From a virus, in IMG/VR virus record IMGVR_UViG_3300021594_000960, positions 9,156-73,155 of that record: 64,000 nucleotides of DNA. One strand, given 5' to 3'. Below, piece after piece: positions 1,427-49,428 of the stretch; the first letter of the stretch is position 1, and each line of letters starts with the position of its first letter. Made by a program: the position numbers and the translations under genes. The notes under the pieces are model-generated. The model saw only the letters and a list, made by a program, of their open reading frames with translations, searched no databases and was not told the DNA's origin.

Positions 1427-3334
1427 TTAAATTTTTATAAATTGTTTAGTTGTTTTATTACGGGAATCAAAAACTACTAATTGGTATAATCCACCAGGGA
1501 GACCTCTAACATCGAGTCTTTTGATAATTTTCGAGTCGAAATCTTGTGGTTGAATTTTACCCAAATTAATAACTTCCTTACCGCCCATATCATAAATAGA
1601 TGCATATAATACAGTTTGTTTTGGTAAACCAATTTCCATGTTGATAATCCCTTCAGTCGGGTTAGGGAACAATTTGATTGTTATTTGTTCATTTGGTGAT
1701 GGTGTAACAACCATCATGGCTCTGTAGGTCAAGACTGTAACGTCTGAGGCTAAACTAATATTGAAATGTTCTCCCATGGAATTTGATGCATCCATAAGTT
1801 TTCTTACATACACTGATGTGGAAATATCCTCGCTTGGATTAATGGCTGTGAATTTTAAATTAAACGGGGTCACCGCTCCAATCAGTGCCCCCGTTTTTTG
1901 ATTGTTCATTCCTCCGAATCGAACAACACCTTTTTGGGGGTCGTGGTTTACATACTGTAACCACGGCCCACCCAAATTGGATTGTATTCCTTCGAATTTA
2001 ACTTTATTGATATCATAGGACATCTCAAACTGTAAACCTGTATTTTGGAGACCATTTGTCTGTAATCTAAATGGAACATTGAGAGGTTGACCTACAACAT
2101 ATTGGTTTGGTATTTCTATGTTCATGTTACCGATAAAATTGTATGCTAAAACCTCACTACCTTGTCCATCAAATACAGGAGATGAGTGTGTTCTGTCGAC
2201 ATCCCCAAGTATAAAATACTTTAAGTCTAATGTTAGGTTTTCAGTACCAACAGAATCCGTTACGATTATACCTCTGTTAGATTTGGATGCCCAAGTTGAC
2301 CAAGTTGTGTTAGATAAAACTAAACTGTCGTATTCTTCTTTTTTGAATACGTTGATTAATTTAGTTAAATCGATTGGTTTTAAACCTGAAACTGATGCGT
2401 AGATACCATAAGGGTCACCACCATCTAATGTACCTGTAAGGTTAATATCACCTATTAGATATGATAATGGGTGTTTTAAGTACTGACGACCATATCCTAA
2501 GTTAACATCAGTTGATGTAAACTCATTGAACGATTTTACCGCATCGGTTATTGTAACAGCTCTGTCTCTCAGAGATGCCAAACTATCTTGAGGGAATTTT
2601 AACTCGATTTTGTATCTTGTATTTTCCTCAATGTTAGTTAGTGTATAAAGACCTGTTGATGCGTTTGGTACAGTTGATGAAACTAACTGATTTGTATTAA
2701 AGTCGTAACAATTAATCGTTGGTAATAAACCACTAGAAGTTACTGAGTTAGGTAAGAAAACTTTACCTGAAATGGTAAGGTTCCCTAATAACTTCACTGC
2801 CATTTTTTTATACGACAGATTAGCAACGTTATCGCCAATTGACGTACCATCTTGTTTTATCATCCTTACCCAGTTAACGGTAATGGAATCTGAATCGTAG
2901 TTTGGACCTACGTTGTTAATTTTGTACTTGTTGTGAATAACATAACCATTGGAACTAACAGCAGCACCGTTAGATAGAATCAAATAGTTTCTACCAATTG
3001 TCCAGTCTGTGTTTGATACGTAGTTATAATTCCCATTGGAGTAAGAATCATATTTGTAGTCGTTCCAAGTTTTGTAATCTACAACAGGTGTGTTGCCGTT
3101 CACTGCAACATCTACCGTGGTTGAAAGATGGGTAAATAGGGTTTTCTTAAATTGCCAGTCGACTTGGAAACCGCGGATGTCTACACCTGGTGCTGGTTTG
3201 TAATACCACGCAACATCTAACGTATCCCCCCTTCTGACTGTTGCAAGTTGTTGAAAGTGACCTATTTCTGGGGTTTGTGCAAAACTACTAATACCACATA
3301 TTAGTAGAAGCAACCCCAAAAGGGTTTTTTTCAT
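1427..3334 (-). CDS. T9SS type A sorting-domain protein with dockerin/cohesin-like modules
   Basis: Signal peptide; GDINLTGTLDGGD dockerin-like; GLQFEMSYD cohesin-like; C-terminal FPNP..IYDMGGK..LPGGLY..KQFIKI. Confidence 0.8.
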   Translation of the reverse strand: MKKTLLGLLLLICGISSFAQTPEIGHFQQLATVRRGDTLDVAWYYKPAPGVDIRGFQVDWQFKKTLFTHLSTTVDVAVNGNTPVVDYKTWNDYKYDSYSNGNYNYVSNTDWTIGRNYLILSNGAAVSSNGYVIHNKYKINNVGPNYDSDSITVNWVRMIKQDGTSIGDNVANLSYKKMAVKLLGNLTISGKVFLPNSVTSSGLLPTINCYDFNTNQLVSSTVPNASTGLYTLTNIEENTRYKIELKFPQDSLASLRDRAVTITDAVKSFNEFTSTDVNLGYGRQYLKHPLSYLIGDINLTGTLDGGDPYGIYASVSGLKPIDLTKLINVFKKEEYDSLVLSNTTWSTWASKSNRGIIVTDSVGTENLTLDLKYFILGDVDRTHSSPVFDGQGSEVLAYNFIGNMNIEIPNQYVVGQPLNVPFRLQTNGLQNTGLQFEMSYDINKVKFEGIQSNLGGPWLQYVNHDPQKGVVRFGGMNNQKTGALIGAVTPFNLKFTAINPSEDISTSVYVRKLMDASNSMGEHFNISLASDVTVLTYRAMMVVTPSPNEQITIKLFPNPTEGIINMEIGLPKQTVLYASIYDMGGKEVINLGKIQPQDFDSKIIKRLDVRGLPGGLYQLVVFDSRNKTTKQFIKI

Positions 3335-26992: not shown

Positions 26993-27481
26993 TTAATAAA
27001 TGAATGATTTTTGGAAGTCATCCCAAACTTTACTCACAATAACATTTTCACCCACCAATGTCGGTGCAAAAGGTTTGTGTCTCATGGACATTCTTGCCTC
27101 CTCAGGGGTTCTATCGGCTTTTTTCAGATTACATTTGAAACAAGAAGTTACAAGGTTGTGCCAATCATTTTTACCACCACGAGACTTTGGGATTACGTGG
27201 TCTAAAGTTAGGTGTTTTGATGACCCACAATAAACACACTGATGGTTATCTCTTTTATAGATTCTATTTCTGTTTGCACGAAGGTTTCTTGTGAAATGTT
27301 TGATATATTTCAGTAGTCTGATGATGACTGGACGAACATAGGTTTTAAATCCAGCAACTATTGGGGAGTCATCTGACTTAACAATTTCAGCCTTTCCTTT
27401 ATCAACCAAAACAAATCCTCGTCGAATAGTCGTCACATTCAACGGGGTGTAATCAAAATTCAATACTAATACATCTCCCAT
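26993..27481 (-). CDS. HNH endonuclease (McrA-like)
   Basis: RDNHQCVYCG..LTLDHVIPKSRGG..NLVTSCFKCN. Confidence 0.93.
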   Translation of the reverse strand: MGDVLVLNFDYTPLNVTTIRRGFVLVDKGKAEIVKSDDSPIVAGFKTYVRPVIIRLLKYIKHFTRNLRANRNRIYKRDNHQCVYCGSSKHLTLDHVIPKSRGGKNDWHNLVTSCFKCNLKKADRTPEEARMSMRHKPFAPTLVGENVIVSKVWDDFQKSFIY

Positions 27482-27515
27482 AGGAATTTTTTTGCAAAGA
27501 TAATTTATTTTATTT

Positions 27516-27544
27516 AAAAAACAAAAGGGGTCTAATGACCCCTT
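27516..27544 (-). terminator. Intrinsic terminator after the 35-aa ORF
   Basis: AAGGGGTC-atta-GACCCCTT then TTGTTTTTT. Confidence 0.75.
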
Positions 27545-27559
27545 CGAATATACAATGCT

Positions 27560-27667
27560 TTAGCAATAGTTTATGGTTCGGGGTATCCTACGTTTCATCA
27601 CCCAAAGGTTCTCATATGAACTTGAAGTTCCCAAAAGACACGTTATTGTATTGTCTAAAATCATCAT
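27560..27667 (-). CDS. Putative leader peptide (35 aa)
   Basis: MMILDNTITCLLGTSSSYENLWVMKRRIPRTINYC*; TATTTAT at 27671-27677; terminator follows. Confidence 0.5.
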   Translation of the reverse strand: MMILDNTITCLLGTSSSYENLWVMKRRIPRTINYC

Positions 27668-27734
27668 GAAATAAATATCATAAATTTTTTTCTTAAATCA
27701 AACTTTTTTGTAACTTTGTTGAAACAAAAAAATT

Positions 27735-28007
27735 ATGCCAAACATAGATTTAGATATAGAAGTATATGAGTTTGTCCGAGCTTGCTCTAAAAGAGACATC
27801 AAAGAATTGATTAAAGAGTTGGTAGATGAGGGACATCTTCCCAAAGACTTGTATTTTAAAAATGGTGAATTAAAAAAAGAAATGAATAGAAAACTCTCAA
27901 GTGAAATTGACTTTGAGGAAAAATTAGATAAACTTAAAACGAAATACTTTTCTTTGAATAAAGATGAAGAAGATTCTTTGGAAAAGATATTTAAGAAACA
28001 TTTATAA
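27735..28007 (+). CDS. Hypothetical protein
   Basis: ORF track; TAACTTTG promoter at 27711-27718. Confidence 0.7.
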   Translation: MPNIDLDIEVYEFVRACSKRDIKELIKELVDEGHLPKDLYFKNGELKKEMNRKLSSEIDFEEKLDKLKTKYFSLNKDEEDSLEKIFKKHL

Positions 28008-28029
28008 ACTGGTATATATTTATAGAAAT

Positions 28030-28125
28030 ATGAAAACTTTGAATCTAAATACGAGAACAAATGCGACAACACCGAATGGTGATGCAGGTGGATTATGCTT
28101 AGGTTCAGAGGCAAGTGGTTGGTAA
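28030..28125 (+). CDS. Leader peptide 1 (31 aa) of tRNA cluster
   Basis: MKTLNLNTRTNATTPNGDAGGLCLGSEASGW*; TATTTAT at 28017-28023; attenuator hairpins. Confidence 0.7.
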   Translation: MKTLNLNTRTNATTPNGDAGGLCLGSEASGW

Positions 28126-28147
28126 TTAAAAACAAAGCCAATAAAAA

Positions 28148-28181
28148 ACCCTGAACCTTGAAAGTTCGGGGTTTTTTTTTT
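28148..28181 (+). terminator. Attenuator terminator 5 nt before tRNA-Pro
   Basis: ACCCTGAAC-cttgaaa-GTTCGGGGT followed by T-tract. Confidence 0.85.
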
Positions 28182-28186
28182 GAATA

Positions 28187-28261
28187 TAGAGTAGTTGACC
28201 AATAGGTAGGTCCCTTGCTTTGGGAGCAAGTGTGTGCAGGTTCGACCCCTGTCTACTCTAC
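28187..28261 (+). tRNA. tRNA-Pro(TGG)
   Basis: TAGAGTA/TACTCTA acceptor; cttgc-TTTGGGA-gcaag. Confidence 0.9.
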
Positions 28262-28273
28262 TTAATTTTAAAA

Positions 28274-28359
28274 ATGCTTCGTTGCCGTAGTGGCCGAACG
28301 GTCCAGACTGTTAATCTGGTGTGTAAAAACCATCGTAGGTTCGAATCCTACCGAAGCAG
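28274..28359 (+). tRNA. tRNA-Asn(GTT) with long variable region
   Basis: TGCTTCG/CGAAGCA acceptor; ccaga-CTGTTAA-tctgg. Confidence 0.88.
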
Positions 28360-28406
28360 CTTTTTTTGAACTCAACAATACTTATAATTAACAACATTTG
28401 TTAATC

Positions 28407-28946
28407 ATGAGTAAGTATTGCGAAAAAATTTTAGAATTGAGGAAAAATGGAATGACGTACAAAGAAATTTCCAATGAATTGAATTGTGCGTTATCCACAG
28501 TCTCTTATCATTGTAAACTTCATAAATTGGGGGGCTCAGATGGTAGGTTGACCGAAGAAGAAAAAATGAGACTACAGAAACTTTATGACCAATTTGGTTC
28601 AATAAAAAAAGTATCTGAAATCACCAAAAATTCTTCGGAAACAATTCTCAAGTATGTGAAAACAAAAAGGAAGAATAAAAAATTAACCGGTTCTGAATCT
28701 GTAATTTTATGGAGAAAAAGAACAAAATTGAAATTGATAGAGTACAAGGGAGGAAAATGTGAGATTTGTGGTTATGATAGATGTGTGAGAGCTTTACAGT
28801 TTCATCATAAAAATCCTGAAACAAAAGATTTTTCTATTTCAGGAAAAAGTCATAGTTTTGTTAAACTGAAATCGGAAGTTGATAAATGTATATTAGTTTG
28901 CTCAAATTGCCATTCAGAAATACATGACGGAATGATTGAAATTTAG
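28407..28946 (+). CDS. HTH + HNH free-standing (homing-type) endonuclease
   Basis: N-terminal HTH; KGGKCEICGY..LQFHH..KCILVCSNCHSEIH; inserted between tRNAs. Confidence 0.85.
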   Translation: MSKYCEKILELRKNGMTYKEISNELNCALSTVSYHCKLHKLGGSDGRLTEEEKMRLQKLYDQFGSIKKVSEITKNSSETILKYVKTKRKNKKLTGSESVILWRKRTKLKLIEYKGGKCEICGYDRCVRALQFHHKNPETKDFSISGKSHSFVKLKSEVDKCILVCSNCHSEIHDGMIEI

Positions 28947-29016
28947 GTCTTATAGTTAATCGGTATAATATCGGCTTGTCGCGCCGAGGTGCGGGGTTCG
29001 ATTCCCCGTGGGACCG
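28946..29016 (+). tRNA. tRNA-Asp(GTC)
   Basis: tcggc-TTGTCGC-gccga; GGTTCGATTCC. Confidence 0.88.
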
Positions 29017-29069
29017 CTGATAGGGTTTGTAGGTTGTAAAACACATTATTGTGTACCCGTATTCAAATT

Positions 29070-29142
29070 GCCTCCTTAGCTCAGCAGGTAGAGCAACTGA
29101 TTTGTAATCAGTAGGTCGTTGGTTCGATTCCGACAGGAGGCT
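29070..29142 (+). tRNA. tRNA-Thr(TGT)
   Basis: GCCTCCT/AGGAGGC; actga-TTTGTAA-tcagt. Confidence 0.95.
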
Positions 29143-29157
29143 CTAAAATTTTAATTT

Positions 29158-29391
29158 ATGCAAGTTTTTTGGACTTATTATTTGATTTGTTTTGCCTATT
29201 GTCTTTTCATGTCTGTTAGAAGATGGAATAGAGATGCAATGGCTGGTGGTCTTGGTATCTCACCTGGTTTGGATACTTTGGGACTTTTAATTATGTGTTG
29301 GATTTTAGCTCCTGTGGATATATTTCTCACATGGGTAAGAGTGTATAAAGAAGCTGAAGAAGCAAGACGAAATAATACAAAAGTATTCTAA
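29158..29391 (+). CDS. Small membrane protein
   Basis: Two hydrophobic segments. Confidence 0.7.
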   Translation: MQVFWTYYLICFAYCLFMSVRRWNRDAMAGGLGISPGLDTLGLLIMCWILAPVDIFLTWVRVYKEAEEARRNNTKVF

Positions 29392-29993
29392 TGACGTACT
29401 CGGACGAATTGAAAGTTTGTTGGTATACACCACAAAGAACCGCCACAAGGACAACACATGTTCTACTCAATGCCATGGGTTTTGTGGGTTTAGGAGCGCA
29501 CTTTTTTAATTTTCCAGAATCAAAAAAAGATTATTTTTTAATTTCTAATATTAGAAATCCGTACACGAGAGTTGTTTCTTTGTTTTCTTTGTATTCGATT
29601 CATAAAAATGATTTCAATTTGAATTTTGAAAAATGGTGTGAATATGCCCTAACAGATAAAAAGTTTGACGGTGATTATCAACTTAGGTATGAGAAAAAAA
29701 TATTAAGTTTGAATAAAAAATTCGATAAGTTTATAAGAGTAGAAAAATTGGACGAAGATTTAAAATCTTTAGGTTTTATCAATTTTGAGGAACCAAAAAT
29801 TCAAGATATTTGGAAAAATAACATCATGAATAATAGGTACACATATGAATTCAAAAATATTGAAAATACCACAAGGACACATTGGTCTGATTTCTACACA
29901 GAAAAACTAGCTGACTTCGTTTACGAAAACTTAAAGGAACAATTTGATTTATTTGGTTACGAAAGAAACTCTTGGAAAAATGGCACATCCTAA
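29391..29993 (+). CDS. Sulfotransferase family 2-like protein
   Basis: PQRTATRT, IRNPYTRVVS, IRVEKLDED, FDLFGY. Confidence 0.8.
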   Translation: MTYSDELKVCWYTPQRTATRTTHVLLNAMGFVGLGAHFFNFPESKKDYFLISNIRNPYTRVVSLFSLYSIHKNDFNLNFEKWCEYALTDKKFDGDYQLRYEKKILSLNKKFDKFIRVEKLDEDLKSLGFINFEEPKIQDIWKNNIMNNRYTYEFKNIENTTRTHWSDFYTEKLADFVYENLKEQFDLFGYERNSWKNGTS

Positions 29994-30333
29994 TTTACAT
30001 GCAAAAAGTTCGGCAAAGAAGTTTGGAGGTAAACCCGAAGATTATATTCATCTACATGAATGGTTAGATGAAACCAAAGGTTGGTTTGGTGATTCTTTAC
30101 ATCGTATGTTTAGACACCATTCAGAAGGTATTTTCGAAATGGAAAAAAGGTTTGGAAAAGAGTTCAAAAACAGCGATGGTAAAACGGTTTATACTAGGTA
30201 TGTTGGAGAACAACATGTGAAGGAGGATTGTAATAATTATATCCCATCAGCCAAAGAATGGGTAAATAATATAACAAGTAACACACGACCAAGTTGGATG
30301 ATTAAAACAATAAAATTAGAGTTTGAAGACTGA
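29980..30333 (+). CDS. DUF6915-like protein
   Basis: MAHPNLHAKSSAKKFGGKPEDY..HRMFRHH..GEQHVKED. Confidence 0.8.
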   Translation: MAHPNLHAKSSAKKFGGKPEDYIHLHEWLDETKGWFGDSLHRMFRHHSEGIFEMEKRFGKEFKNSDGKTVYTRYVGEQHVKEDCNNYIPSAKEWVNNITSNTRPSWMIKTIKLEFED

Positions 30334-30346
30334 TATTTATAACATT

Positions 30347-31057
30347 ATGAGCAAAATACTAACATCAGAAGAAAAAAAATACTTACAGAGAATTTGTAGA
30401 TACTTGGGTTCATTAGGAATGAACCATGGTAGTATTGATTTCGAAATGGAATATGGTGAATTTGATACTAATGACTATAATTGGAACCGTATTACTCATT
30501 TCTCTAACAATTATACTGCGGAAATTCCTGACGGATTAAAAGAAATCTGTAAAAAACTGCTCAAGTATGTTGAAGAAAACGATTTAATTAATAATCCAGA
30601 TGTCGAAAATTTAAACTGGGAACGAATTGAAATCGATGTTGATTGTGACGAGTCAACAATCTCTGTTGTTCATGATTATAATTACTTCGAAGCTAGTGAT
30701 ACTGAGTCAGTCACAAGAAGTTTGGAAGAAGATGGTGACGATGAAAGCTTAATGGAAGTGTTTGATGTTTTGGAAAATGATGATGAAATTGATGAAAGAG
30801 TTCTAAGAATTGATTATAACGGTAGTGGTGATAGCGGATACTTAGAAGACGCCTTTGATAATATAGGGGTCGATGTGCCAGCACAAGTTCAAGATTACTG
30901 TTATGGTATTTTAGAAAGTAATTTTGGTGGTTGGGAAATTAACGAAGGCTCACAAGGATATTTTGAAATTGATTTAGATAGAAAAGAAATTACTCTCTAT
31001 CACACATCCAATCTTGATGAAACAGGAAGAGATACTGTTTTTGAAGAAGACTTCTAA
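30347..31057 (+). CDS. DUF6878-like protein
   Basis: YNGSGDSG...GWEINEGSQG. Confidence 0.75.
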   Translation: MSKILTSEEKKYLQRICRYLGSLGMNHGSIDFEMEYGEFDTNDYNWNRITHFSNNYTAEIPDGLKEICKKLLKYVEENDLINNPDVENLNWERIEIDVDCDESTISVVHDYNYFEASDTESVTRSLEEDGDDESLMEVFDVLENDDEIDERVLRIDYNGSGDSGYLEDAFDNIGVDVPAQVQDYCYGILESNFGGWEINEGSQGYFEIDLDRKEITLYHTSNLDETGRDTVFEEDF

Positions 31058-31099
31058 ATTATTTGTTTTTTTAATCCAAATCCCTTATTTTTGTATTAT

Positions 31100-31186
31100 A
31101 CCTTGGTGGCGAAATCGGTATACGCGCAAGACTTAAAATCTTGTGGACAGAAAATGTCCGTGTGGGTTCAAGTCCCACCTGAGGTA
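31100..31186 (+). tRNA. tRNA-Leu(TAA)
   Basis: caaga-CTTAAAA-tcttg; variable arm; TATTTTTG promoter at 31086-31093. Confidence 0.9.
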
Positions 31187-31262
31187 GGCGTAACGGTAGC
31201 CGCGTTGGTCTTAGGAACCAATGACTTCGGTCGTGAGAGTTCGAGTCTCTCTTGGGGTACCA
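31187..31262 (+). tRNA. tRNA-Leu(TAG), 5' acceptor strand missing
   Basis: ttggt-CTTAGGA-accaa; ends in ACCA; D-arm begins right after the previous tRNA. Confidence 0.8.
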
Positions 31263-32036: not shown

Positions 32037-32117
32037 ATGAGAACACAGGTGCAACATATTGTCTACAGTCATCAACAAGAGATTTGTTGGATTAAGACAC
32101 GCCCTGTAGTCTCGTGA
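32037..32117 (+). CDS. Leader peptide 2 (26 aa) of tRNA cluster
   Basis: MRTQVQHIVYSHQQEICWIKTRPVVS*; TATATTTG promoter at 32012-32019; attenuator hairpins. Confidence 0.7.
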   Translation: MRTQVQHIVYSHQQEICWIKTRPVVS

Positions 32118-32150
32118 GAAGCCTATAATTCCTGAAGAGTTATATATAAG

Positions 32151-32191
32151 ACCTCGAACTACAGAAATGAAGTTCGGGGTTTTTTCTTTTT
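32151..32191 (+). terminator. Attenuator terminator
   Basis: ACCTCGAACT-acagaaatga-AGTTCGGGGT followed by T-tract. Confidence 0.85.
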
Positions 32192-35064: not shown

Positions 35065-35149
35065 GGAGAGTTGCCTGAGTGGTTAAAGGAGCGGTTTACT
35101 AAACCGTGGTCGGGTAACTGACCCGCTGGTTCGAATCCAGCACTCTCCG
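35065..35149 (+). tRNA. tRNA-Ser with ACT anticodon
   Basis: GGAGAGT/ACTCTCC-G; gcggt-TTACTAA-accgt; long variable arm. Confidence 0.9.
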
Positions 35150-35189
35150 CACTTTTTTTAACCTACTAGTTGACGATTTAGAAAACTTG

Positions 35190-40903: not shown

Positions 40904-43900
40904 TTATCTACCGAAAATATATCTCAATCCGAGTTGAGCTTGCCAAACATCAAATACAGATGTGTTCCACTGATAAGTGTCTCTGATAAGACCTACAGTA
41001 GTTGTACCATTTGCATTTAACACTGGTTGCGTTGATAATCTGTAAACAGGTTCACCTGCTGTGTTAGTTGATGAGTAACTGAGAATTGCTGGGTTTGTAG
41101 CTCTTTGAGATACACCCCAATCAGAGTTAACCATATTACCAAAGTTTAAGATATCCAATCTAAGTTGGAATGTGTTTCTTTGACCTTTGATATCTACAAA
41201 GAAATCTTGTTGTATGGAGATATCAAATCTGTGTAACATAGGGATTACTGAAGCGTTCCTTTCAGCGTATTGACCTCTTCTTGTTGAAAGATATTTGTCT
41301 TGGTCAATGTAAGCATCGAATGCCGCTTGTTGTTGTGCTTCAGTGAAAGTTACACCACCTGAAGTGAATGAAGCAAATCTGATGTCTGTAGCTTTGTTAG
41401 GAACAAAGATAAGTTCATTGTTGTTTACTCTATCACCGTTAAGGTCACCTGCTACGAAGTAGCTGAAAGGATTACCTTGTTGACCTACATAACCTAAAGT
41501 GATTGTTGTTGCACCAGCACCTTTCTTAGCACCATTTTCTAACTTATATCCTACAAGTCCTACGACTCTGTTTGGAATCCAGTTATCCGCGAAAGCTAAT
41601 GGTAAATCATTATTACCGTTAATAGCTCTTGCTGACTGCCAAGAACCTGAAGCAATTGAACCCGCACTCATATAATCTTTTGATAAAGATGTAGTCCAAG
41701 CTAAAGAACCCCAAAGTCCTTTTTGAGCTGGATATTTTAACTCAAAAGTTGCAGATGTATTATAAGCACCTTCTCTGTTAGTTAATACCGCACCCATTGA
41801 TACGTTATCATTAACTCTAACTCCTGCGTCATTTCTTGCGAATACCGCTCTTTTATCAGGACCGTTAAATGCACCTACAGGAGCATCTAAGTTTGAATTA
41901 TAGTAATGAACTGCGTTAAGGAATCTGTTGTACATAAGTTCCACAGTACCTATAAAACCTAAAGGTAACTTTTTGTCTGCTGCTAAGTTTGTTTTCCATA
42001 CTTGTGGAAATTTGTAATTAGGGTCTGTGAATGCTAAGTCAAATGTAGAAGGTAATGTTGGAGTCTGAGGGATGAAGTATTGATTAGGATTAGCAGTGAA
42101 ACCGTAGTTTGCAGCTGCAGCACCCGATACATCAATAAATCCTGTTAGAACACCATTGTTACCTACTTGGTTAGAAACGAATACATATGGAGGTCTTCCT
42201 GTGAATACACCTGAACCACCTCTAACCTGTAAATCGTTTTTACCTTTGTGATTGTAATTGAAACCAATTCTTGGTTCGAACAATACTTGAGTCTTAGGAA
42301 GAACTCCTGTATTGAATTTTTCACCACCAGCAAAAGTCATTGCTGTTACTGCTTTGTTCTCTAAAGCTGTGTTTTCAAAACCGATAACAGCAACTCTAAG
42401 ACCTCCTGTGATTTTCAAATTCTCATTGTGTTGATATTCATCTTGAGCATATAAGTCAAGACGTGAAGTTTTCAAAACTTGCATTGGTTCAATTCCACCA
42501 GGTAAAGCTGAGTAACGAAGTTGGAATCTTGCAGGTGCAAGAGTTGAAGGTCTTCCACCGTTAGCAATCGATTGATTTGCTGCTGTGTAGAAGTCATTAA
42601 GAGAATTGAAGATATAAACACCATTAGATGCAGGATAAAATAAGTTGTTAGAACGGTACTTTTCGAAGTTAACACCTGCTACTATTGTATGTTTGTCCAA
42701 AAATTTGGTCAAGTTATTAGTAACGTGGAATGTGTTGTAATCTAACTTATTACCAGGTGTGAATGGGTCAAAACCTACTGAAGCGTATGTTGCAGTACCA
42801 TTCATAATATCAATAGTTGGAAACATCTGTGAAAGATATCCTCTATTTTCAATCTGAACATCATAACCAACAATCAAGTTGTTGTGTAATGTGTTTGAGA
42901 ACTTGCTGTTGAGTTCTAATACAGAGGAACGAGTGTTATCTTGAATAATATAACCACTGTTCTTGAAACTCATTGCATTGAACTGAGTAGTTCTGTTACC
43001 AGCACCTGCTGATTGTGAGTTTGAGATATTAATCTCAGCTGATGAGTTGTGGTGTACATAACGACCAGTCAATTTATGCTTGTCGTTTATGTTCCAATCC
43101 AATCTAACCAAGAATTTCTCAGAAGTGTTTGCGTTATTATAGTTTTCCCATGGACCTGTTTCATAGTTGAAATTTGTTCTCATGAAATCAGATAGAGTCT
43201 TCATATCTGAATAAAGTACTCTTGAGATTTGAGAACCTGCTAAAGGTGAACCTTGAGAAATCCAAGTAGTTCCTGGTTCGGTTTTCTCCAAACTTTCGTA
43301 GTTACCAAAAATGAATAATTTGTTTTTGATAATCGGAGCACCTAATCTGAAACCTCTGATTGACTCTTCAAATTTTGAAGCAGTCACTGTTGTTCCTTTA
43401 GCGTTGTTACCTACGTAACGTTGATTGTCTCTGTTGAACTGATAATAAGAACCTTCAACTTTGTTTGAACCACTTCTTGTAACTGCGTTGATACCAGCAC
43501 CAACGAAACCACTTTGACGGATGTCGAAAGGAGCTACGTTGATTTGAAGTTGGTCAATCGCATCCAAGGAAATAGCACTTGAACCTGTTCTACCACCCGC
43601 TTGAGCTGAAGAACCAAGTCCAAAACCATTATTAAACTGAGAACCGTCGATAGTGAAATTGTTTAATCTACTATCCGCTCCACCGAACGAACGACCATCA
43701 CCCATTGGATTGTACTTGGTGATTCCGTCGATTGTTCTCGCACCTGTAATGGGAACAGAAGTTAATTCTCTTCTACCAAACTGCTGAGACGCACCTGTTC
43801 TGTCGATACTAAAAGTGTTGTTTCTATTGAAACTAACAACAACTTCCTGTAGGGACTTGATATCTTCAATCAAAATAACCTCTAAAGTAGTTGTAATACC

Positions 43901-44191
43901 CAAAGAGGTGTTGATATCAGATAGTTCCTTCATTTTGTAACCCACGAAAGATACATGGACTACGTAAGGACCACCAGGACGAACAGCGGGAATGGTAAAA
44001 TTACCAACTTTGTTTGTGGATGCACGATATTCAGAACCCGTAGGTTGATGAACAACGTGAACCGATGCTCCCACTAAAGCATCTCCTTTTTCATTTTTCA
44101 CAACACCAGACAGGGCAGATGTAGTTATTTGCCCGAAAGATGTTAGAGTCACTAACAAGGATAAAAGCGACGCGAAAATTGCTTTTTTCAT
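40904..44191 (-). CDS. TonB-dependent receptor, Oar-like, with carboxypeptidase regulatory-like N-domain
   Basis: Signal peptide; GGPYVV; NNFTIDG; APFDIRQSGFVGAGINAVTRSGSN; C-terminal QAQLGLRYIF. Confidence 0.93.
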   Translation of the reverse strand: MKKAIFASLLSLLVTLTSFGQITTSALSGVVKNEKGDALVGASVHVVHQPTGSEYRASTNKVGNFTIPAVRPGGPYVVHVSFVGYKMKELSDINTSLGITTTLEVILIEDIKSLQEVVVSFNRNNTFSIDRTGASQQFGRRELTSVPITGARTIDGITKYNPMGDGRSFGGADSRLNNFTIDGSQFNNGFGLGSSAQAGGRTGSSAISLDAIDQLQINVAPFDIRQSGFVGAGINAVTRSGSNKVEGSYYQFNRDNQRYVGNNAKGTTVTASKFEESIRGFRLGAPIIKNKLFIFGNYESLEKTEPGTTWISQGSPLAGSQISRVLYSDMKTLSDFMRTNFNYETGPWENYNNANTSEKFLVRLDWNINDKHKLTGRYVHHNSSAEINISNSQSAGAGNRTTQFNAMSFKNSGYIIQDNTRSSVLELNSKFSNTLHNNLIVGYDVQIENRGYLSQMFPTIDIMNGTATYASVGFDPFTPGNKLDYNTFHVTNNLTKFLDKHTIVAGVNFEKYRSNNLFYPASNGVYIFNSLNDFYTAANQSIANGGRPSTLAPARFQLRYSALPGGIEPMQVLKTSRLDLYAQDEYQHNENLKITGGLRVAVIGFENTALENKAVTAMTFAGGEKFNTGVLPKTQVLFEPRIGFNYNHKGKNDLQVRGGSGVFTGRPPYVFVSNQVGNNGVLTGFIDVSGAAAANYGFTANPNQYFIPQTPTLPSTFDLAFTDPNYKFPQVWKTNLAADKKLPLGFIGTVELMYNRFLNAVHYYNSNLDAPVGAFNGPDKRAVFARNDAGVRVNDNVSMGAVLTNREGAYNTSATFELKYPAQKGLWGSLAWTTSLSKDYMSAGSIASGSWQSARAINGNNDLPLAFADNWIPNRVVGLVGYKLENGAKKGAGATTITLGYVGQQGNPFSYFVAGDLNGDRVNNNELIFVPNKATDIRFASFTSGGVTFTEAQQQAAFDAYIDQDKYLSTRRGQYAERNASVIPMLHRFDISIQQDFFVDIKGQRNTFQLRLDILNFGNMVNSDWGVSQRATNPAILSYSSTNTAGEPVYRLSTQPVLNANGTTTVGLIRDTYQWNTSVFDVWQAQLGLRYIFGR

Positions 44192-44413: not shown

Positions 44414-44806
44414 TGGTGGAGAAGACGGGATTCGAACCCGTGTCTTGTTCGCGATAACTATAAATGACTACACGTTTATTACAACATTGTTTCTCAATGT
44501 TCCGAAATATTAGGTTTGATATTTGTGAGAACCCCACCTACAAACAACTTGGTCTCAGAATTATTTTAAACGAGCTCTGACCTGTGACCCGTAAATTGGA
44601 CTTCTGTTCCTAGGTTAATGTCCTAACCGACCCGAGTAGTTGTGTCTTAATTAAGCAACAACTGTAGCTTCTTCAGCGATTAAACCGATAGCAGCCATTT
44701 TAGCAAAAGTATTGCCGTTTGTGTTTCAAATCAGTTTTTAAGGAGTTAATTCAGCTCCTACGTGCCACTTATACCTACACACGCCAATCAATGCCATGTC
44801 TTCCCC
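44414..44806 (-). ncRNA. ssrA: tmRNA
   Basis: 5' GGGGAAGA, 3' GGTTCGAATCCCGTCTTCTCCACCA; tag GNTFAKMAAIGLIAEEATVVA* at 44716-44651; TATATTTG promoter at 44827-44834. Confidence 0.92.
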
Positions 44807-47415: not shown

Positions 47416-49428
47416 TTATCGTCCCTTTTTTTCTACAACTACATTTTCACCATCAACTTTTAACTTGTAGTTTTTATTTTCTAACATTTTTCCTGTTAGT
47501 ACTTCCTCTGAGAGTAAATCCTCGATTTTATCTTGGATTGCTCTTTTTAGAGGACGAGCACCATATAGTTCATCAAACCCGACTTTGGAAAGATACTCAA
47601 CCAATGTCTCGTCATAAGACACTTTATAGTTCATGTCCTCGAGTCTACCAATCAACTTCTTAAGTTCGATTTCAGTAATCTTCTTGATATCCTCTTTACT
47701 CAAACTGTTAAAGACAATAGTGTCGTCAATACGGTTTATGAATTCAGGAGAGAAGAAATTTTTCATTTCTTTCATCAATACCTGTTTTTTTGCTTCTTCG
47801 TTTCCGTAAGCACTTGTACCAAAACCAATACCTGTTCCGAAATCTTGAAGTTTTTTAACACCCAGGTTTGAAGTAAGAATAATCAATGTGTTTTTGAAAT
47901 TAATCTTACGTCCCAAACTGTCTGTAACGTGACCGTCATCCAAAATCTGAAGTAAAACAGTGAATACATCTTTGTGAGCTTTTTCAACCTCATCGAAAAG
48001 GATTACAGAATATGGTTTGTTCTTTACCTTTTCAGTAAGAAGACCACCTTCTTCATATCCAACATAACCAGGAGGAGCCCCCACCAATTTTGAAACAGTG
48101 TGTTTCTCTTGGTATTCGGACATATCCACACGAATGAGCGAGTCTTCTGAACCAAACATCTCTTTCGCTAATTGTTTAGCTAAGTGAGTTTTACCAACAC
48201 CTGTTGAACCCAAGAATACGAATGAACCGATTGGACGATTTGGGTCTTTGATACCGAGACGGTTTCTTTTAATTGCTTTAGCAATTTTCTTAACAGCTTC
48301 GTCTTGTCCAATAACCTTACCCATAAGTTCTTTGTCCAAGTTCAAAAGAGCCTTTGTATCGTCAACACTCATTTTGTTAACTGGAATTTTGGTCATATTT
48401 GAAACAACATCATAAACATCCTCCAAAGAAATTTGTTTTTTGTTGTTAATCATTTCTTCCTCGAACTTCTTTTTTTCAGCATCCAATTTGTCCAAAAGTT
48501 TTTTCTCTTTGTCTCTGAGTTGTGCCGCTTGTTCGTAGTTCTGTTTTTTTACAACTTCAATTTTTTGATTACGGATTTCAGCCGCTTTCTTTTTCAACTC
48601 TTCGATTGAAGGGGGAACTTTAAGTTCAGTTTGCATTCTTGCACCAACCTCATCCATAATATCAAATGCTTTATCAGGGAACTCACGGTCAGTAATGTAA
48701 CGGTCAGCGAGTTTCACACAAGTTTCAATTACTTCATCAGAATAAGATACTTTGTGATAAGTTTCATATTTGTCTCTGATGTTTTTAAGGATTTGAATTG
48801 TCTCAACAACAGAGGATGGGTCAACCATTACTTTTTGGAATCTACGTTCCAAGGCTCCGTCTTTCTCAATATTCTTACGGAACTCATCTAAAGTTGTTGC
48901 TCCGATAATTTGAATTTCACCACGAGATAGAGCTGGTTTGAAAATGTTAGAACCGTCCATAGAGCCAGCAGAGTTACCTGAACCAACTAAAGTATGAACC
49001 TCATCAATGAATACAATGATGTTGGGATTAGCTTGAAGTTCTTCGATGATAACTTTCATTCTTTCCTCAAATTGTCCACGGTATTTCGTACCCGCCACAA
49101 CTGAAGTCAAATCTAAATTGACCAATCTTTTGTCTATCAAATTTCTCGGACATTCCCCACTTACAATCTTCATTGCAAGACCTTCAACAATTGCAGTTTT
49201 ACCACAACCAGGCTCACCAATGATGATTGGATTGTTTTTCTTTCTACGAGATAAGATTTGAGCAATCCTCAGAATCTCACGGTCTCTTCCAATTACAGGG
49301 TCGAGTTTACCTTGTTCTGCTAACTTATTTAAGTCTCTACTGAAGTTATCCAAAACAGGAGTACTACTGTCTGAGTTCTGTTTTTGTTTTTTACTCATTT
49401 TTTCGTCGTCGTCCATTAAATCATTCAT
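47416..49428 (-). CDS. clpC: ClpC/ClpA-type AAA+ ATPase lacking the N-terminal Clp-repeat domain
   Basis: GEPGCGKT, GSTGVGKT, UVR-like coiled coil, IGF loop, GARPL. Confidence 0.93.
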   Translation of the reverse strand: MNDLMDDDEKMSKKQKQNSDSSTPVLDNFSRDLNKLAEQGKLDPVIGRDREILRIAQILSRRKKNNPIIIGEPGCGKTAIVEGLAMKIVSGECPRNLIDKRLVNLDLTSVVAGTKYRGQFEERMKVIIEELQANPNIIVFIDEVHTLVGSGNSAGSMDGSNIFKPALSRGEIQIIGATTLDEFRKNIEKDGALERRFQKVMVDPSSVVETIQILKNIRDKYETYHKVSYSDEVIETCVKLADRYITDREFPDKAFDIMDEVGARMQTELKVPPSIEELKKKAAEIRNQKIEVVKKQNYEQAAQLRDKEKKLLDKLDAEKKKFEEEMINNKKQISLEDVYDVVSNMTKIPVNKMSVDDTKALLNLDKELMGKVIGQDEAVKKIAKAIKRNRLGIKDPNRPIGSFVFLGSTGVGKTHLAKQLAKEMFGSEDSLIRVDMSEYQEKHTVSKLVGAPPGYVGYEEGGLLTEKVKNKPYSVILFDEVEKAHKDVFTVLLQILDDGHVTDSLGRKINFKNTLIILTSNLGVKKLQDFGTGIGFGTSAYGNEEAKKQVLMKEMKNFFSPEFINRIDDTIVFNSLSKEDIKKITEIELKKLIGRLEDMNYKVSYDETLVEYLSKVGFDELYGARPLKRAIQDKIEDLLSEEVLTGKMLENKNYKLKVDGENVVVEKKGR

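What the first reader, a model, noticed from the sequence alone, without database searches (positions are those of the whole stretch)
28030..28186. Leader 1 has complete 1:2 / 2:3 / 3:4 attenuator helices
Seen: segment 1 CTTTGAATCTAA (28037-28048) pairs with segment 2 TTAGGTTCAGAG (28099-28110), 12 bp with 2 G-U. Segment 2 AGGTTCAG (28101-28108) also pairs perfectly with CTGAACCT (28151-28158), the terminator 5' arm. tRNA-Pro starts 5 nt after the T-tract, leaving no room for a promoter, so it needs read-through. The Thr/Asn/Leu codons overlie segment 1. The P-N-G-D order mirrors the tRNA order Pro, Asn, Asp. Leu codons TTA/TTG/CTA match tRNA-Leu(TAA) and (TAG).
Basis: partly seen in the sequence, partly recalled or inferred. 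Interest (0 to 1): 0.85.

Follow-up and report, generated by a model that had tools for sequence, protein, structure and literature searches.

The report
Leader-peptide switch before phage tRNA genes
A 31-codon mini-gene, a stop signal and an RNA fold that can mask it sit in front of this lake phage's tRNA genes, so it may make more tRNA when ribosomes stall, though most relatives also have a separate tRNA promoter.

Summary
The helices lie at the stated coordinates. In 1000 dinucleotide shuffles, 4 reached the 12-bp 1:2 helix, 10 the 8-nt match to the terminator arm, and 0 both overlapping.

The window is a fragment of a T4-like jumbo phage of Bacteroidota. The module is phage promoter motif, 30-34 codon ORF, hairpin, terminator, tRNA-Pro. 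It recurs in 13 sequence variants from lake metagenomes.

Best reading, confidence 0.55: a trp-style ribosome-mediated attenuator. In the window the anti-terminator state equals the terminator state in energy (-19.2 vs -19.1 kcal/mol). Of the leader's 30 residues, 19 are amino acids whose tRNAs follow it in relatives (p=8e-4).

Against this, 12 of 15 junction variants carry a host-type promoter (TTG, 19-20 nt, TAnnTTTG) overlapping the terminator. "No room for a promoter" is therefore wrong as a general claim. In the window that promoter is degenerate. Covariation is thin, and in most relatives the terminator is the more stable state.

Nothing is experimental. Earlier notes of this scan describe the same kind of unit on other phage DNA, and a second unit in this window. 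Six literature searches found no published account.

The parts
28017..28023 (+). Phage promoter-like motif TATTTAT (P1), 6 nt before the leader ATG
   Evidence: The window holds 40 copies. 23 lie within 60 nt upstream of a kept ORF start against 1.4 expected, mostly 4-6 nt before the ATG and often just after terminators. Read by eye, the exact motif is present in 12 of 13 leader variants.
28030..28125 (+). Leader ORF 1, 31 codons plus stop
   Evidence: The ORF is kept at 30-34 codons in 13 of 13 variants. All length changes are multiples of three, and the stop lies 23-27 nt before the terminator core. No PHROG family matched.
28037..28048 (+). Segment 1, the 5' arm of the 1:2 helix, over codons 3-7
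   Evidence: It shares a register in 7 of 13 variants. In the others a different upstream stretch pairs with segment 2.
28066..28083 (+). Conserved core codons Thr-Thr-Pro-Asn-Gly-Asp, which also form an apical hairpin (28070-28073 with 28078-28081)
   Evidence: The RNAalifold consensus keeps this hairpin, with one pair changed on both sides in 2 of 13 rows.
28099..28110 (+). Segment 2. It pairs with segment 1, or through 28101-28108 and 28110-28111 with segment 3
   Evidence: The six-base core 28103-28108 is invariant in 13 of 13 variants, although the codon before it encodes Gly, Asp, Ser or Arg.
28118..28142 (+). Helper hairpin (28118-28123 with 28137-28142) nested inside the anti-terminator; it uses the conserved spacer after the stop codon
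   Evidence: A nested hairpin of this kind is predicted in the nascent fold of 13 of 13 variants.
28143..28181 (+). Intrinsic terminator. Segment 3 is 28149-28156, segment 4 is 28164-28171, flanked by an A-tract and a run of 10 T
   Evidence: Of 14 stem pairs, 8 never vary and none changes on both sides.
28158..28182 (+). Remnant of host-type promoter P2: loop TTG at 28158-28160 and a degenerate -7 box at 28175-28182
   Evidence: The window has 5 of 6 box positions and a spacer of 14. Relatives have 6 of 6 in 11 of 15 junctions and a spacer of 19-20 in 12 of 15.
28188..29143 (+). Putatively gated block: tRNA-Pro, tRNA-Asn, an inserted ORF resembling annotated HNH endonuclease genes (28407-28946), tRNA-Asp, tRNA-Thr
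   Evidence: No further terminator-like site lies on the + strand before 31625.

Best explanation
Leader 1 is a ribosome-mediated (leader-peptide) transcription attenuator. It sets how much transcription from the phage-type promoter P1 (28017-28023) continues past the terminator (28143-28181) into tRNA-Pro, Asn, Asp and Thr.

Inferred sequence of events:
1. RNA polymerase starts a few bases before the ATG, giving a near-leaderless mRNA.
2. With no ribosome on the leader, segment 1 pairs with segment 2. Segment 3 is then free to pair with segment 4, and transcription stops.
3. A ribosome that runs quickly to the stop codon has the same outcome. Its footprint, roughly 28108-28137, covers the 3' end of segment 2 and the helper hairpin, so transcription also stops.
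4. A ribosome held up at codons about 3-20 changes the outcome. These codons are rich in Thr, Asn, Pro, Gly, Asp, Ala and Leu. The stalled ribosome covers segment 1 or separates it from segment 2. Segment 2 and the helper hairpin then pair with segment 3 before segment 4 is made, and polymerase reads into the tRNA genes.

The output tRNAs read the codons being tested, so this would be a negative-feedback gauge of tRNA supply. In most relatives a host-type promoter P2 overlapping the terminator also drives the tRNAs independently. In the window P2 has decayed.

What is shown: the sequences, their pairing potential, their conservation and the statistics. What is inferred: transcription, translation, stalling and read-through.
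For: Geometry and chance. The 12-bp 1:2 helix and the overlapping 8-nt 2:3 match occurred together in 0 of 1000 shuffles. The fold has z=-4.19.

Switch energetics in the window. With the ribosome A site at codons 1-11, P(anti-terminator) is 0.89-0.98; without a ribosome, P(terminator) is 0.99. If pairs spanning a ribosome are forbidden, the anti-terminator is favoured for 20 of the 21 stall positions up to codon 21 (P 0.76-0.99; 0.48 at codon 14) and falls to 0.04 or less from codon 22. The nascent 2:3 state is -19.2 kcal/mol and the best terminator state -19.1.

Family conservation. The ORF is kept in frame in 13 of 13 variants. The 2:3 helix forms in the nascent fold of 13 of 13. It is more stable than 300 shuffles at p of 0.10 or less in 11 of 13.

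Nucleotide-level rather than peptide-level constraint. The segment 2 core is invariant while the amino acids around it vary. The peptide tails differ radically (ending in Trp, Gly or Leu). A five-base motif that pairs with the conserved spacer sits in two different reading frames.

Covariation. One double change links segment 2 to segment 3 (GC to AU, 2 of 13 rows). One double change lies in 1:2 (CG 5 rows, AU 3 rows).

Segment 1 moves, segment 2 does not. In 8 of 13 variants, pairing of the segment 2 core with the N-terminal part exceeds shuffles at p of 0.01 or less. This fits a second partner holding segment 2 fixed.

Codon content. 19 of 30 leader residues fall in the set Pro, Asn, Asp, Gly, Thr, Ala carried by the ancestral block (background 0.335, p=8e-4). 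A second, non-homologous leader at 32037-32117 has 14 of 25 residues in the set of its own block (p=0.0025). The reciprocal Fisher test gives p=7e-5.

Promoter. P1 is the phage's usual gene-start motif.

Decay of P2. P2 is degenerate in 2 of the 4 junctions that carry the window's type of tRNA-Pro, yet the tRNA gene is intact. This suggests that supply through the terminator is enough.

Host capability. Passages of PMC9723704 report clues for leader-peptide attenuation in a flavobacterium.
Against: P2. In 11 of 15 junctions the TAnnTTTG box is complete, and in 12 of 15 it lies 19-20 nt from the loop TTG although the T-run length varies. It ends 5-12 nt before tRNA-Pro. The tRNAs therefore need no read-through in most relatives.

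Loss of the leader. One lineage (L002, L017, L021, L035; one sequence) has lost the leader ORF entirely and keeps promoter motif, terminator and P2.

Energetics elsewhere. At equilibrium the terminator state is more stable by 2-7 kcal/mol in 8 of 13 variants and by 1.3 in one more. In the model that forbids pairs spanning a ribosome, the anti-terminator is clearly favoured in only 3 of 13.

Weak covariation. No terminator pair changes on both sides, and the 2:3 helix has one double change from a single clade. RNAalifold recovers only the apical hairpin and the terminator. The 1:2 pairing is not above shuffles in L003, L018, L020 and L028 (p 0.2-0.3).

Recoding test. Synonymous recoding is only mildly significant per variant (p 0.00-0.29 for the fold, 0.03-0.31 for the duplex).

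Confounded core. The conserved core codons are also the two arms of a hairpin, so their conservation has two possible causes.

Own block. Against the window's own four-tRNA block the enrichment is 11 of 30, p=0.056. L022 lacks tRNA-Asp but its leader keeps Asp codons.

Sensor design. The test codons are mostly single, not long runs.

No expression data of any kind.
Confidence: 0.55

Rival explanations
1. A stand-alone mini-gene with an ordinary terminator. P1 drives a small peptide gene whose transcript always ends at 28181. The tRNA block is transcribed from the overlapping host-type promoter P2, or from its remnant in the window. The 1:2 and 2:3 complementarities serve mRNA stability or are by-products. 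The match between codons and tRNAs is coincidence.
For: P2 is conserved with compensated spacing in 12 of 15 junctions. The same promoter geometry stands directly before tRNA-Leu in the window, at 31062-31093. A third unit on the minus strand has the same layout in front of non-tRNA genes: promoter motif, a 35-codon ORF at 27560-27667, a terminator at 27545-27524, then a host-type -7 box. The lineage without the leader keeps the terminator and P2. In most relatives the terminator is thermodynamically dominant.
Against: The peptide is not conserved as a protein would be. Its tail changes radically, its N-terminal third varies freely, and the invariant positions track base pairs, not residues. 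No family matched. The joint helices occurred in 0 of 1000 shuffles. Two non-homologous leaders each mirror their own tRNA block (Fisher p=7e-5). P2 has decayed in the window and in L033 while the tRNA gene stays intact.
Confidence: 0.27
2. A small structured RNA about 155 nt long, running from P1 to the terminator, that acts in trans or is co-processed with the tRNAs. The open frame would be secondary, as with attenuator-derived sRNAs.
For: The fold is strong (z=-4.19). The apical hairpin, the spacer motif and the terminator are conserved. The abstract of PMC6614838, seen in a search listing, describes an attenuator RNA acting in trans.
Against: No Rfam family reaches its threshold. The frame is kept through at least four separate length changes, all multiples of three, with a fixed stop position. 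The start context is the same as that of real genes. No target is known.
Confidence: 0.08
3. Mainly a DNA-level element. The conserved hairpin region would be conserved because it is the -33 to -7 stretch of P2 and an insulator against upstream transcription, with no regulated switching.
For: The loop sequence with its TTG is invariant in 13 of 13 leader variants, which is unusual for a terminator loop. Spacing to the -7 box is kept.
Against: This does not explain the ORF, the 1:2 helix, the invariant segment 2 core, or the double change between segments 2 and 3. In the window the spacing to the -7 box is broken, yet the hairpin is intact.
Confidence: 0.05

Closest known systems
Leader-peptide transcription attenuators of amino-acid operons (trpL, hisL, leuL, pheL; multivalent thrL and ilvL). 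Textbook knowledge, recalled.
   Same: A short translated leader, then three helices: 1:2 (anti-anti-terminator), 2:3 (anti-terminator) and 3:4 (intrinsic terminator with a T-run). The test codons lie so that a stalled ribosome ends just before segment 2. As in thr and ilv, several amino acids are sampled.
   Different: The genes behind it are tRNA genes of a phage, not biosynthetic enzymes. The codons tested are read by the products themselves. The test codons are mostly single. The mRNA is probably near-leaderless and starts from a phage promoter motif. In most relatives a second promoter overlaps the terminator.
Rfam RF00506 Thr_leader
   Same: It is the best sub-threshold Rfam match over the whole element, 28022-28180, covering model positions 1-118 of 118.
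   Different: The score is 33.9 bits against a gathering score of 55. The matching letters are mostly in the terminator, and many pairs are non-standard. The element is not a member.
T-box leaders (recalled)
   Same: A terminator/anti-terminator choice that reports the state of a tRNA.
   Different: A T-box binds uncharged tRNA directly and has no leader ORF. No T-box match appeared at either threshold.
Anabaena trn operon of 26 tRNA genes (PMC10272220, abstract read; PMC8421152, term search only)
   Same: An accessory tRNA array that is switched on when translation is impaired.
   Different: It is controlled by a protein repressor, TrcR (abstract). The words attenuat-, leader peptide and terminator occur 0 times in the main text of PMC8421152.

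Membership tests
Ribosome-mediated leader-peptide attenuator | A short ORF with its own start, upstream of the controlled genes | tested here: met
   The ORF is 28030-28125. It is kept in frame in 13 of 13 variants. Its start context matches that of other genes in the window. Translation itself is not shown.
Ribosome-mediated leader-peptide attenuator | An intrinsic terminator between the leader ORF and the controlled genes | tested here: met
   The stem has 14 pairs, of which 5 are G-C, and is followed by 10 T. The core stem is invariant in 13 of 13 variants.
Ribosome-mediated leader-peptide attenuator | An anti-terminator (2:3) that excludes the terminator and can compete with it | tested here: met
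   In the window the two states are -19.2 and -19.1 kcal/mol, and P(anti-terminator) is 0.89-0.98 with segment 1 masked. Across the family the helix forms in 13 of 13 nascent folds, but the terminator state is the more stable one in most variants.
Ribosome-mediated leader-peptide attenuator | An upstream partner (1:2) that sequesters segment 2 when the leader is not occupied | tested here: met
   In the window the helix is 12 bp, matched by 4 of 1000 shuffles. It is above shuffles at p of 0.01 or less in 8 of 13 variants and not in L003, L018, L020 and L028. RNAalifold does not recover it.
Ribosome-mediated leader-peptide attenuator | Leader codons enriched for what the controlled genes supply | tested here: met
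   19 of 30 residues fall in the ancestral block's set (p=8e-4). For the window's own four tRNAs the count is 11 of 30 (p=0.056). The reciprocal test with leader 2 gives p=7e-5.
Ribosome-mediated leader-peptide attenuator | Controlled genes depend on read-through, with no promoter of their own after the terminator | tested here: inconclusive
   A host-type promoter overlaps the terminator in 12 of 15 junctions. In the window it is degenerate.
Ribosome-mediated leader-peptide attenuator | Read-through responds to the decoding speed of the leader codons | not testable with these tools
   No RNA run holds the stretch. The nearest cultured phage shares only 38% identity in the portal protein.
Rfam Thr_leader (RF00506) | Score at or above the gathering threshold | tested here: not met
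   33.9 bits against 55.
T-box leader | A match to the Rfam T-box model | tested here: not met
   It is absent from the 15 matches at gathering score and from the 48 matches at E up to 10.
Known phage small-protein family | A match to a PHROG family | tested here: not met
   0 families at E up to 1 for both leader peptides.

The most novel reading that the evidence does not exclude
Jumbo phages of Bacteroidota may run a tRNA-supply homeostat. Each main block of phage tRNA genes would be gated by its own short test reading frame written in the codons that block serves. A shortage of those particular tRNAs, from heavy phage translation or from host tRNA-cleaving defences, would stall the ribosome and switch on their transcription from a phage promoter. 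A host-type promoter overlapping the terminator would give an unregulated early supply.
Probability: 0.4. Interest if true: 0.85.

Novelty: new variant of a known kind. Interest (0 to 1): 0.68.

Why it matters
Phage tRNA genes are usually discussed in terms of codon usage or escape from host tRNA nucleases. How their expression is controlled is largely unknown. If it is real, a leader-peptide attenuator whose output is the very tRNAs it tests would extend the trp-operon logic to a new kind of target. It would give a sequence-readable mark of which tRNAs a phage treats as limiting. It would also make a clean prediction: inhibiting one aminoacyl-tRNA synthetase should open one leader and not the other.

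Six searches of the paper library found no such account. The nearest case in print is a tRNA array in Anabaena that responds to translational stress, and it is controlled by a protein repressor.

Tried and rejected
Expression data. The look-up of sequencing runs listed no RNA holder. The one run guessed to be RNA (X20) gave a single contig from a diverged relative, less than 90% alike, which may be DNA. Neither result bears on expression.

More distant relatives. After filtering the new loci, 4 candidates remained and none was a leader. That scan was wasted.

GenBank phages. blastn of 27000-31000 matched only tRNA and endonuclease pieces covering 5% or less of the query. The portal protein finds nothing closer than 38% identity, so no cultured model is at hand. 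I listed the tRNAs of Flavobacterium phage immuto (3 matches) but did not inspect what lies upstream of them.

Co-variation of leader and tRNA array. L008 and L025 lack both the Asp codon and tRNA-Asp. L022 lacks tRNA-Asp but keeps Asp codons. That is one clade for and one against, so I rejected it as evidence.

pheU/pheV. I recalled that the E. coli tRNA-Phe genes might have an attenuator-like leader. A search and a look into PMC3082878 gave no support, so I dropped the idea.

L028. The L028 row was read out of frame because its locus holds fewer than 40 upstream bases. I ignore that row. The composition counts therefore stand for 12 of 13 rows.

Supplements. The supplementary files of PMC9723704 list its candidate flavobacterial attenuators. 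They were not open to me.

Full report
WHAT IS THERE

The window is 64 kb of a 73-kb IMG/VR virus record that CheckV rates 24% complete. It encodes a T4-like portal and large terminase. It also encodes a protein with a type IX secretion sorting domain and a SusC-like outer-membrane barrel. I therefore take the host to be a member of Bacteroidota; that the sorting domain is restricted to this phylum is recalled knowledge.

The window holds 15 tRNA genes and a tmRNA. The finding lies just before the first tRNA block: Pro 28188, Asn 28275, an inserted endonuclease-like ORF, Asp 28946, Thr 29070.

THE OBSERVATION

- The MFE of 28010-28187 is the 1:2 hairpin plus the terminator (-46 kcal/mol, z=-4.19, 0 of 200 shuffles as stable).
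- In 1000 dinucleotide shuffles of 28030-28142, a helix as long as 1:2 arose 4 times.
- An 8-nt complement to the terminator arm arose 10 times.
- Both together with overlap arose 0 times.

RELATIVES

Searches with the neighbouring 90-residue protein and with terminator patterns brought in 36 placements (counting the window and its copy L001), giving 22 distinct stretches. The records are named as freshwater or lake metagenomes where a name is given.

- Thirteen distinct nucleotide variants carry the leader. They give 12 distinct peptides of 30-34 residues.
- Three more placements hold too little upstream sequence to judge (L010, L029, L033).
- One lineage has no leader ORF at all (L002, L017, L021, L035; one sequence). 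There the promoter motif runs straight into a weakened terminator.

The frame is kept through several length changes, all multiples of three. The stop codon stays 23-27 nt before the terminator core.

WHAT IS CONSERVED

The peptide is not conserved as a protein would be. Its first third varies freely. Its tail ends in Trp, Gly or Leu after point changes.

The invariant letters track base pairs instead. The six-base core of segment 2 is identical in 13 of 13 variants, while the codon before it encodes Gly, Asp, Ser or Arg. A short motif that pairs with the conserved spacer after the stop codon sits in two different frames.

That spacer had no explanation until the nascent RNA was folded. It forms a helper hairpin (28118-28123 with 28137-28142) nested inside the 2:3 helix, which shortens the loop of the anti-terminator.

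THE SWITCH

For the window:
- With the A site at codons 1-11, the anti-terminator has probability 0.89-0.98.
- With no ribosome, the terminator has probability 0.99.
- If pairs that would enclose a ribosome are disallowed, the anti-terminator is favoured at 20 of the 21 stall positions up to codon 21 (0.48 at codon 14) and is at 0.04 or below from codon 22.
- The conserved core Thr-Thr-Pro-Asn-Gly-Asp (codons 13-18) lies at the 3' edge of that range.
- The two states are equal in energy, -19.2 against -19.1 kcal/mol.

Across the family:
- The 2:3 helix forms in all 13 nascent folds.
- It beats 300 shuffles at p of 0.10 or less in 11 of 13 variants.
- The terminator state is more stable by 2-7 kcal/mol in 8 variants and by 1.3 in one more.
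- Switching in those variants would have to be kinetic, as is said of trp (recalled).

COVARIATION

Covariation is thin.
- Structure A (1:2, apical hairpin, 3:4): 86% of cells paired, and 3 pairs with double changes, a count that 22 of 500 shuffles reach.
- The 2:3 helix: 80% of cells paired against 6-56% when slid. It has one GC-to-AU double change in 2 rows of one clade.
- RNAalifold recovers only the apical hairpin and the terminator.

Segment 1 is not in one register. Seven variants share the window's register, and the others pair a different upstream stretch with segment 2. Pairing of the segment 2 core with the N-terminal part exceeds shuffles at p of 0.01 or less in 8 of 13 variants, at 0.075 in one, and not in L003, L018, L020 and L028.

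A moving segment 1 opposite a frozen segment 2 is what a second partner (segment 3) would produce. This is an argument, not a test.

Synonymous recoding leaves the native ORF more stable than the recoded mean in 13 of 13 variants. Per variant this is weak (p 0.00-0.29), and the rows are related to each other.

CODONS AND tRNAs

In the complete 321-kb relative G001 the order along the transcribed strand is:
- leader 1
- Pro Asn Asp Gly Gly Thr Ala
- Leu Arg Leu
- leader 2
- Glu Val Phe Lys Cys Ile
- Trp Tyr Met Gln Arg His Ser

Of the 30 residues of the window's leader 1 after the initial Met, 19 belong to the first block's six amino acids (background 0.335, p=8e-4). The longest unbroken run of such residues is 9-14 in 10 of the 12 rows read in frame.

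Leader 2 (32037-32117) is unrelated in sequence. It has its own promoter box and its own terminator. 14 of its 25 residues lie in the set of its own block (p=0.0025). The reciprocal table [[19,4],[3,14]] gives p=7e-5.

Two caveats. Against the window's own reduced block (Pro Asn Asp Thr) the count is 11 of 30, p=0.056. The core codons are also the arms of the apical hairpin, so their conservation has two possible causes.

PROMOTERS

The seven-base motif six bases before the leader's ATG occurs 40 times in the window. 23 copies lie within 60 nt upstream of an ORF start against 1.4 expected, mostly 4-6 nt before the ATG and often just after a terminator. It is the phage's own gene-start signal, and the leader has it like any other gene.

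In 11 of 15 distinct terminator-tRNA junctions a full TAnnTTTG box begins in the T-run. In 12 of 15 it lies 19-20 nt after the TTG of the terminator loop. The T-run length varies, and extra bases make up the difference. The box ends 5-12 nt before tRNA-Pro.

TAnnTTTG at -12 to -5 is the sigma-A box of a flavobacterium (passages of PMC9723704). The window's tRNA-Leu has the same arrangement: TTTG at 31062-31065, 20 nt, then the box at 31086-31093.

So most relatives can make these tRNAs without reading through anything. In the window the box has 5 of 6 positions and the spacer is 14. In L033 it has 4 of 6 positions. The tRNA genes are intact in both.

READING

I commit to an attenuator at 0.55: P1 drives a near-leaderless leader, and read-through is raised when codons 3-20 are decoded slowly. 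P2 supplies a separate, probably early, unregulated input that has decayed in this genome.

The chief rival, at 0.27, is a stand-alone mini-gene whose transcript simply ends, with the tRNAs made from P2. A third unit of the same layout in front of non-tRNA genes (27677-27524, minus strand) supports that rival, unless it too is an attenuator.

KNOWN FAMILIES

Functionally the element looks like the multivalent thr and ilv attenuators. It is not a member of Rfam Thr_leader (33.9 bits against 55), of the T-box family or of any PHROG family.

Six searches found no paper on attenuators of tRNA genes in phages. For each I read the listing, and passages of only one paper. The nearest case in print is the Anabaena trn operon, which is controlled by a repressor (abstract).

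Earlier notes of this scan make the same kind of claim for leader 2 of this window and for other phage genomes. I used them as leads only.

Noticed in passing
window, 40 sites, for example 47401 (-), 50045 (+), 36620 (-): A seven-base motif (TATTTAT) lies 4-6 nt before many start codons, often directly after terminators (23 of 40 copies near ORF starts against 1.4 expected). It looks like a phage-specific promoter giving near-leaderless mRNAs.
   Followed up: partly
window 27524-27677 (-): A third unit with the same layout: the promoter motif at 27677, a 35-codon ORF at 27560-27667, a terminator at 27545-27524, then a host-type -7 box before the gene at 26993-27481. The ORF is kept, with amino-acid changes, in L008.
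   Followed up: partly
window 31062-31262: A canonical Bacteroidota promoter ends 5-6 nt before tRNA-Leu(taa). ARAGORN's second tRNA-Leu(tag), 31177-31262, overlaps the first by 11 nt and is not among the Rfam matches. Relatives have Leu-Arg-Leu here, so the window may have a deletion.
   Followed up: no
window 32037-32186: A second leader of 26 codons with its own terminator stands before tRNA-Cys and tRNA-Ile and the later Trp-Ser block. It is conserved in L008, L010, L020, L025 and L035. The L035 copy has Phe where others have Tyr, and its array holds tRNA-Phe.
   Followed up: partly
window 28407-28946 (+): An ORF with an N-terminal helix-turn-helix sits between tRNA-Asn and tRNA-Asp. At the nucleotide level it resembles genes annotated as HNH endonuclease in many unrelated phages, so it is probably a homing endonuclease. 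Relatives lack it at this place.
   Followed up: no
window 44414-44806 (-) and 35065-35150 (+): A phage-borne tmRNA with an unusual 8-residue tag, and a tRNA-Ser with anticodon ACT.
   Followed up: no
window 1427-3334 (-), 40904-44191 (-), 47416-49428 (-): Cell-like genes carried by the phage: a protein with a type IX secretion sorting tail, a 1094-residue SusC-like outer-membrane barrel, and a ClpB-like double AAA ATPase.
   Followed up: no
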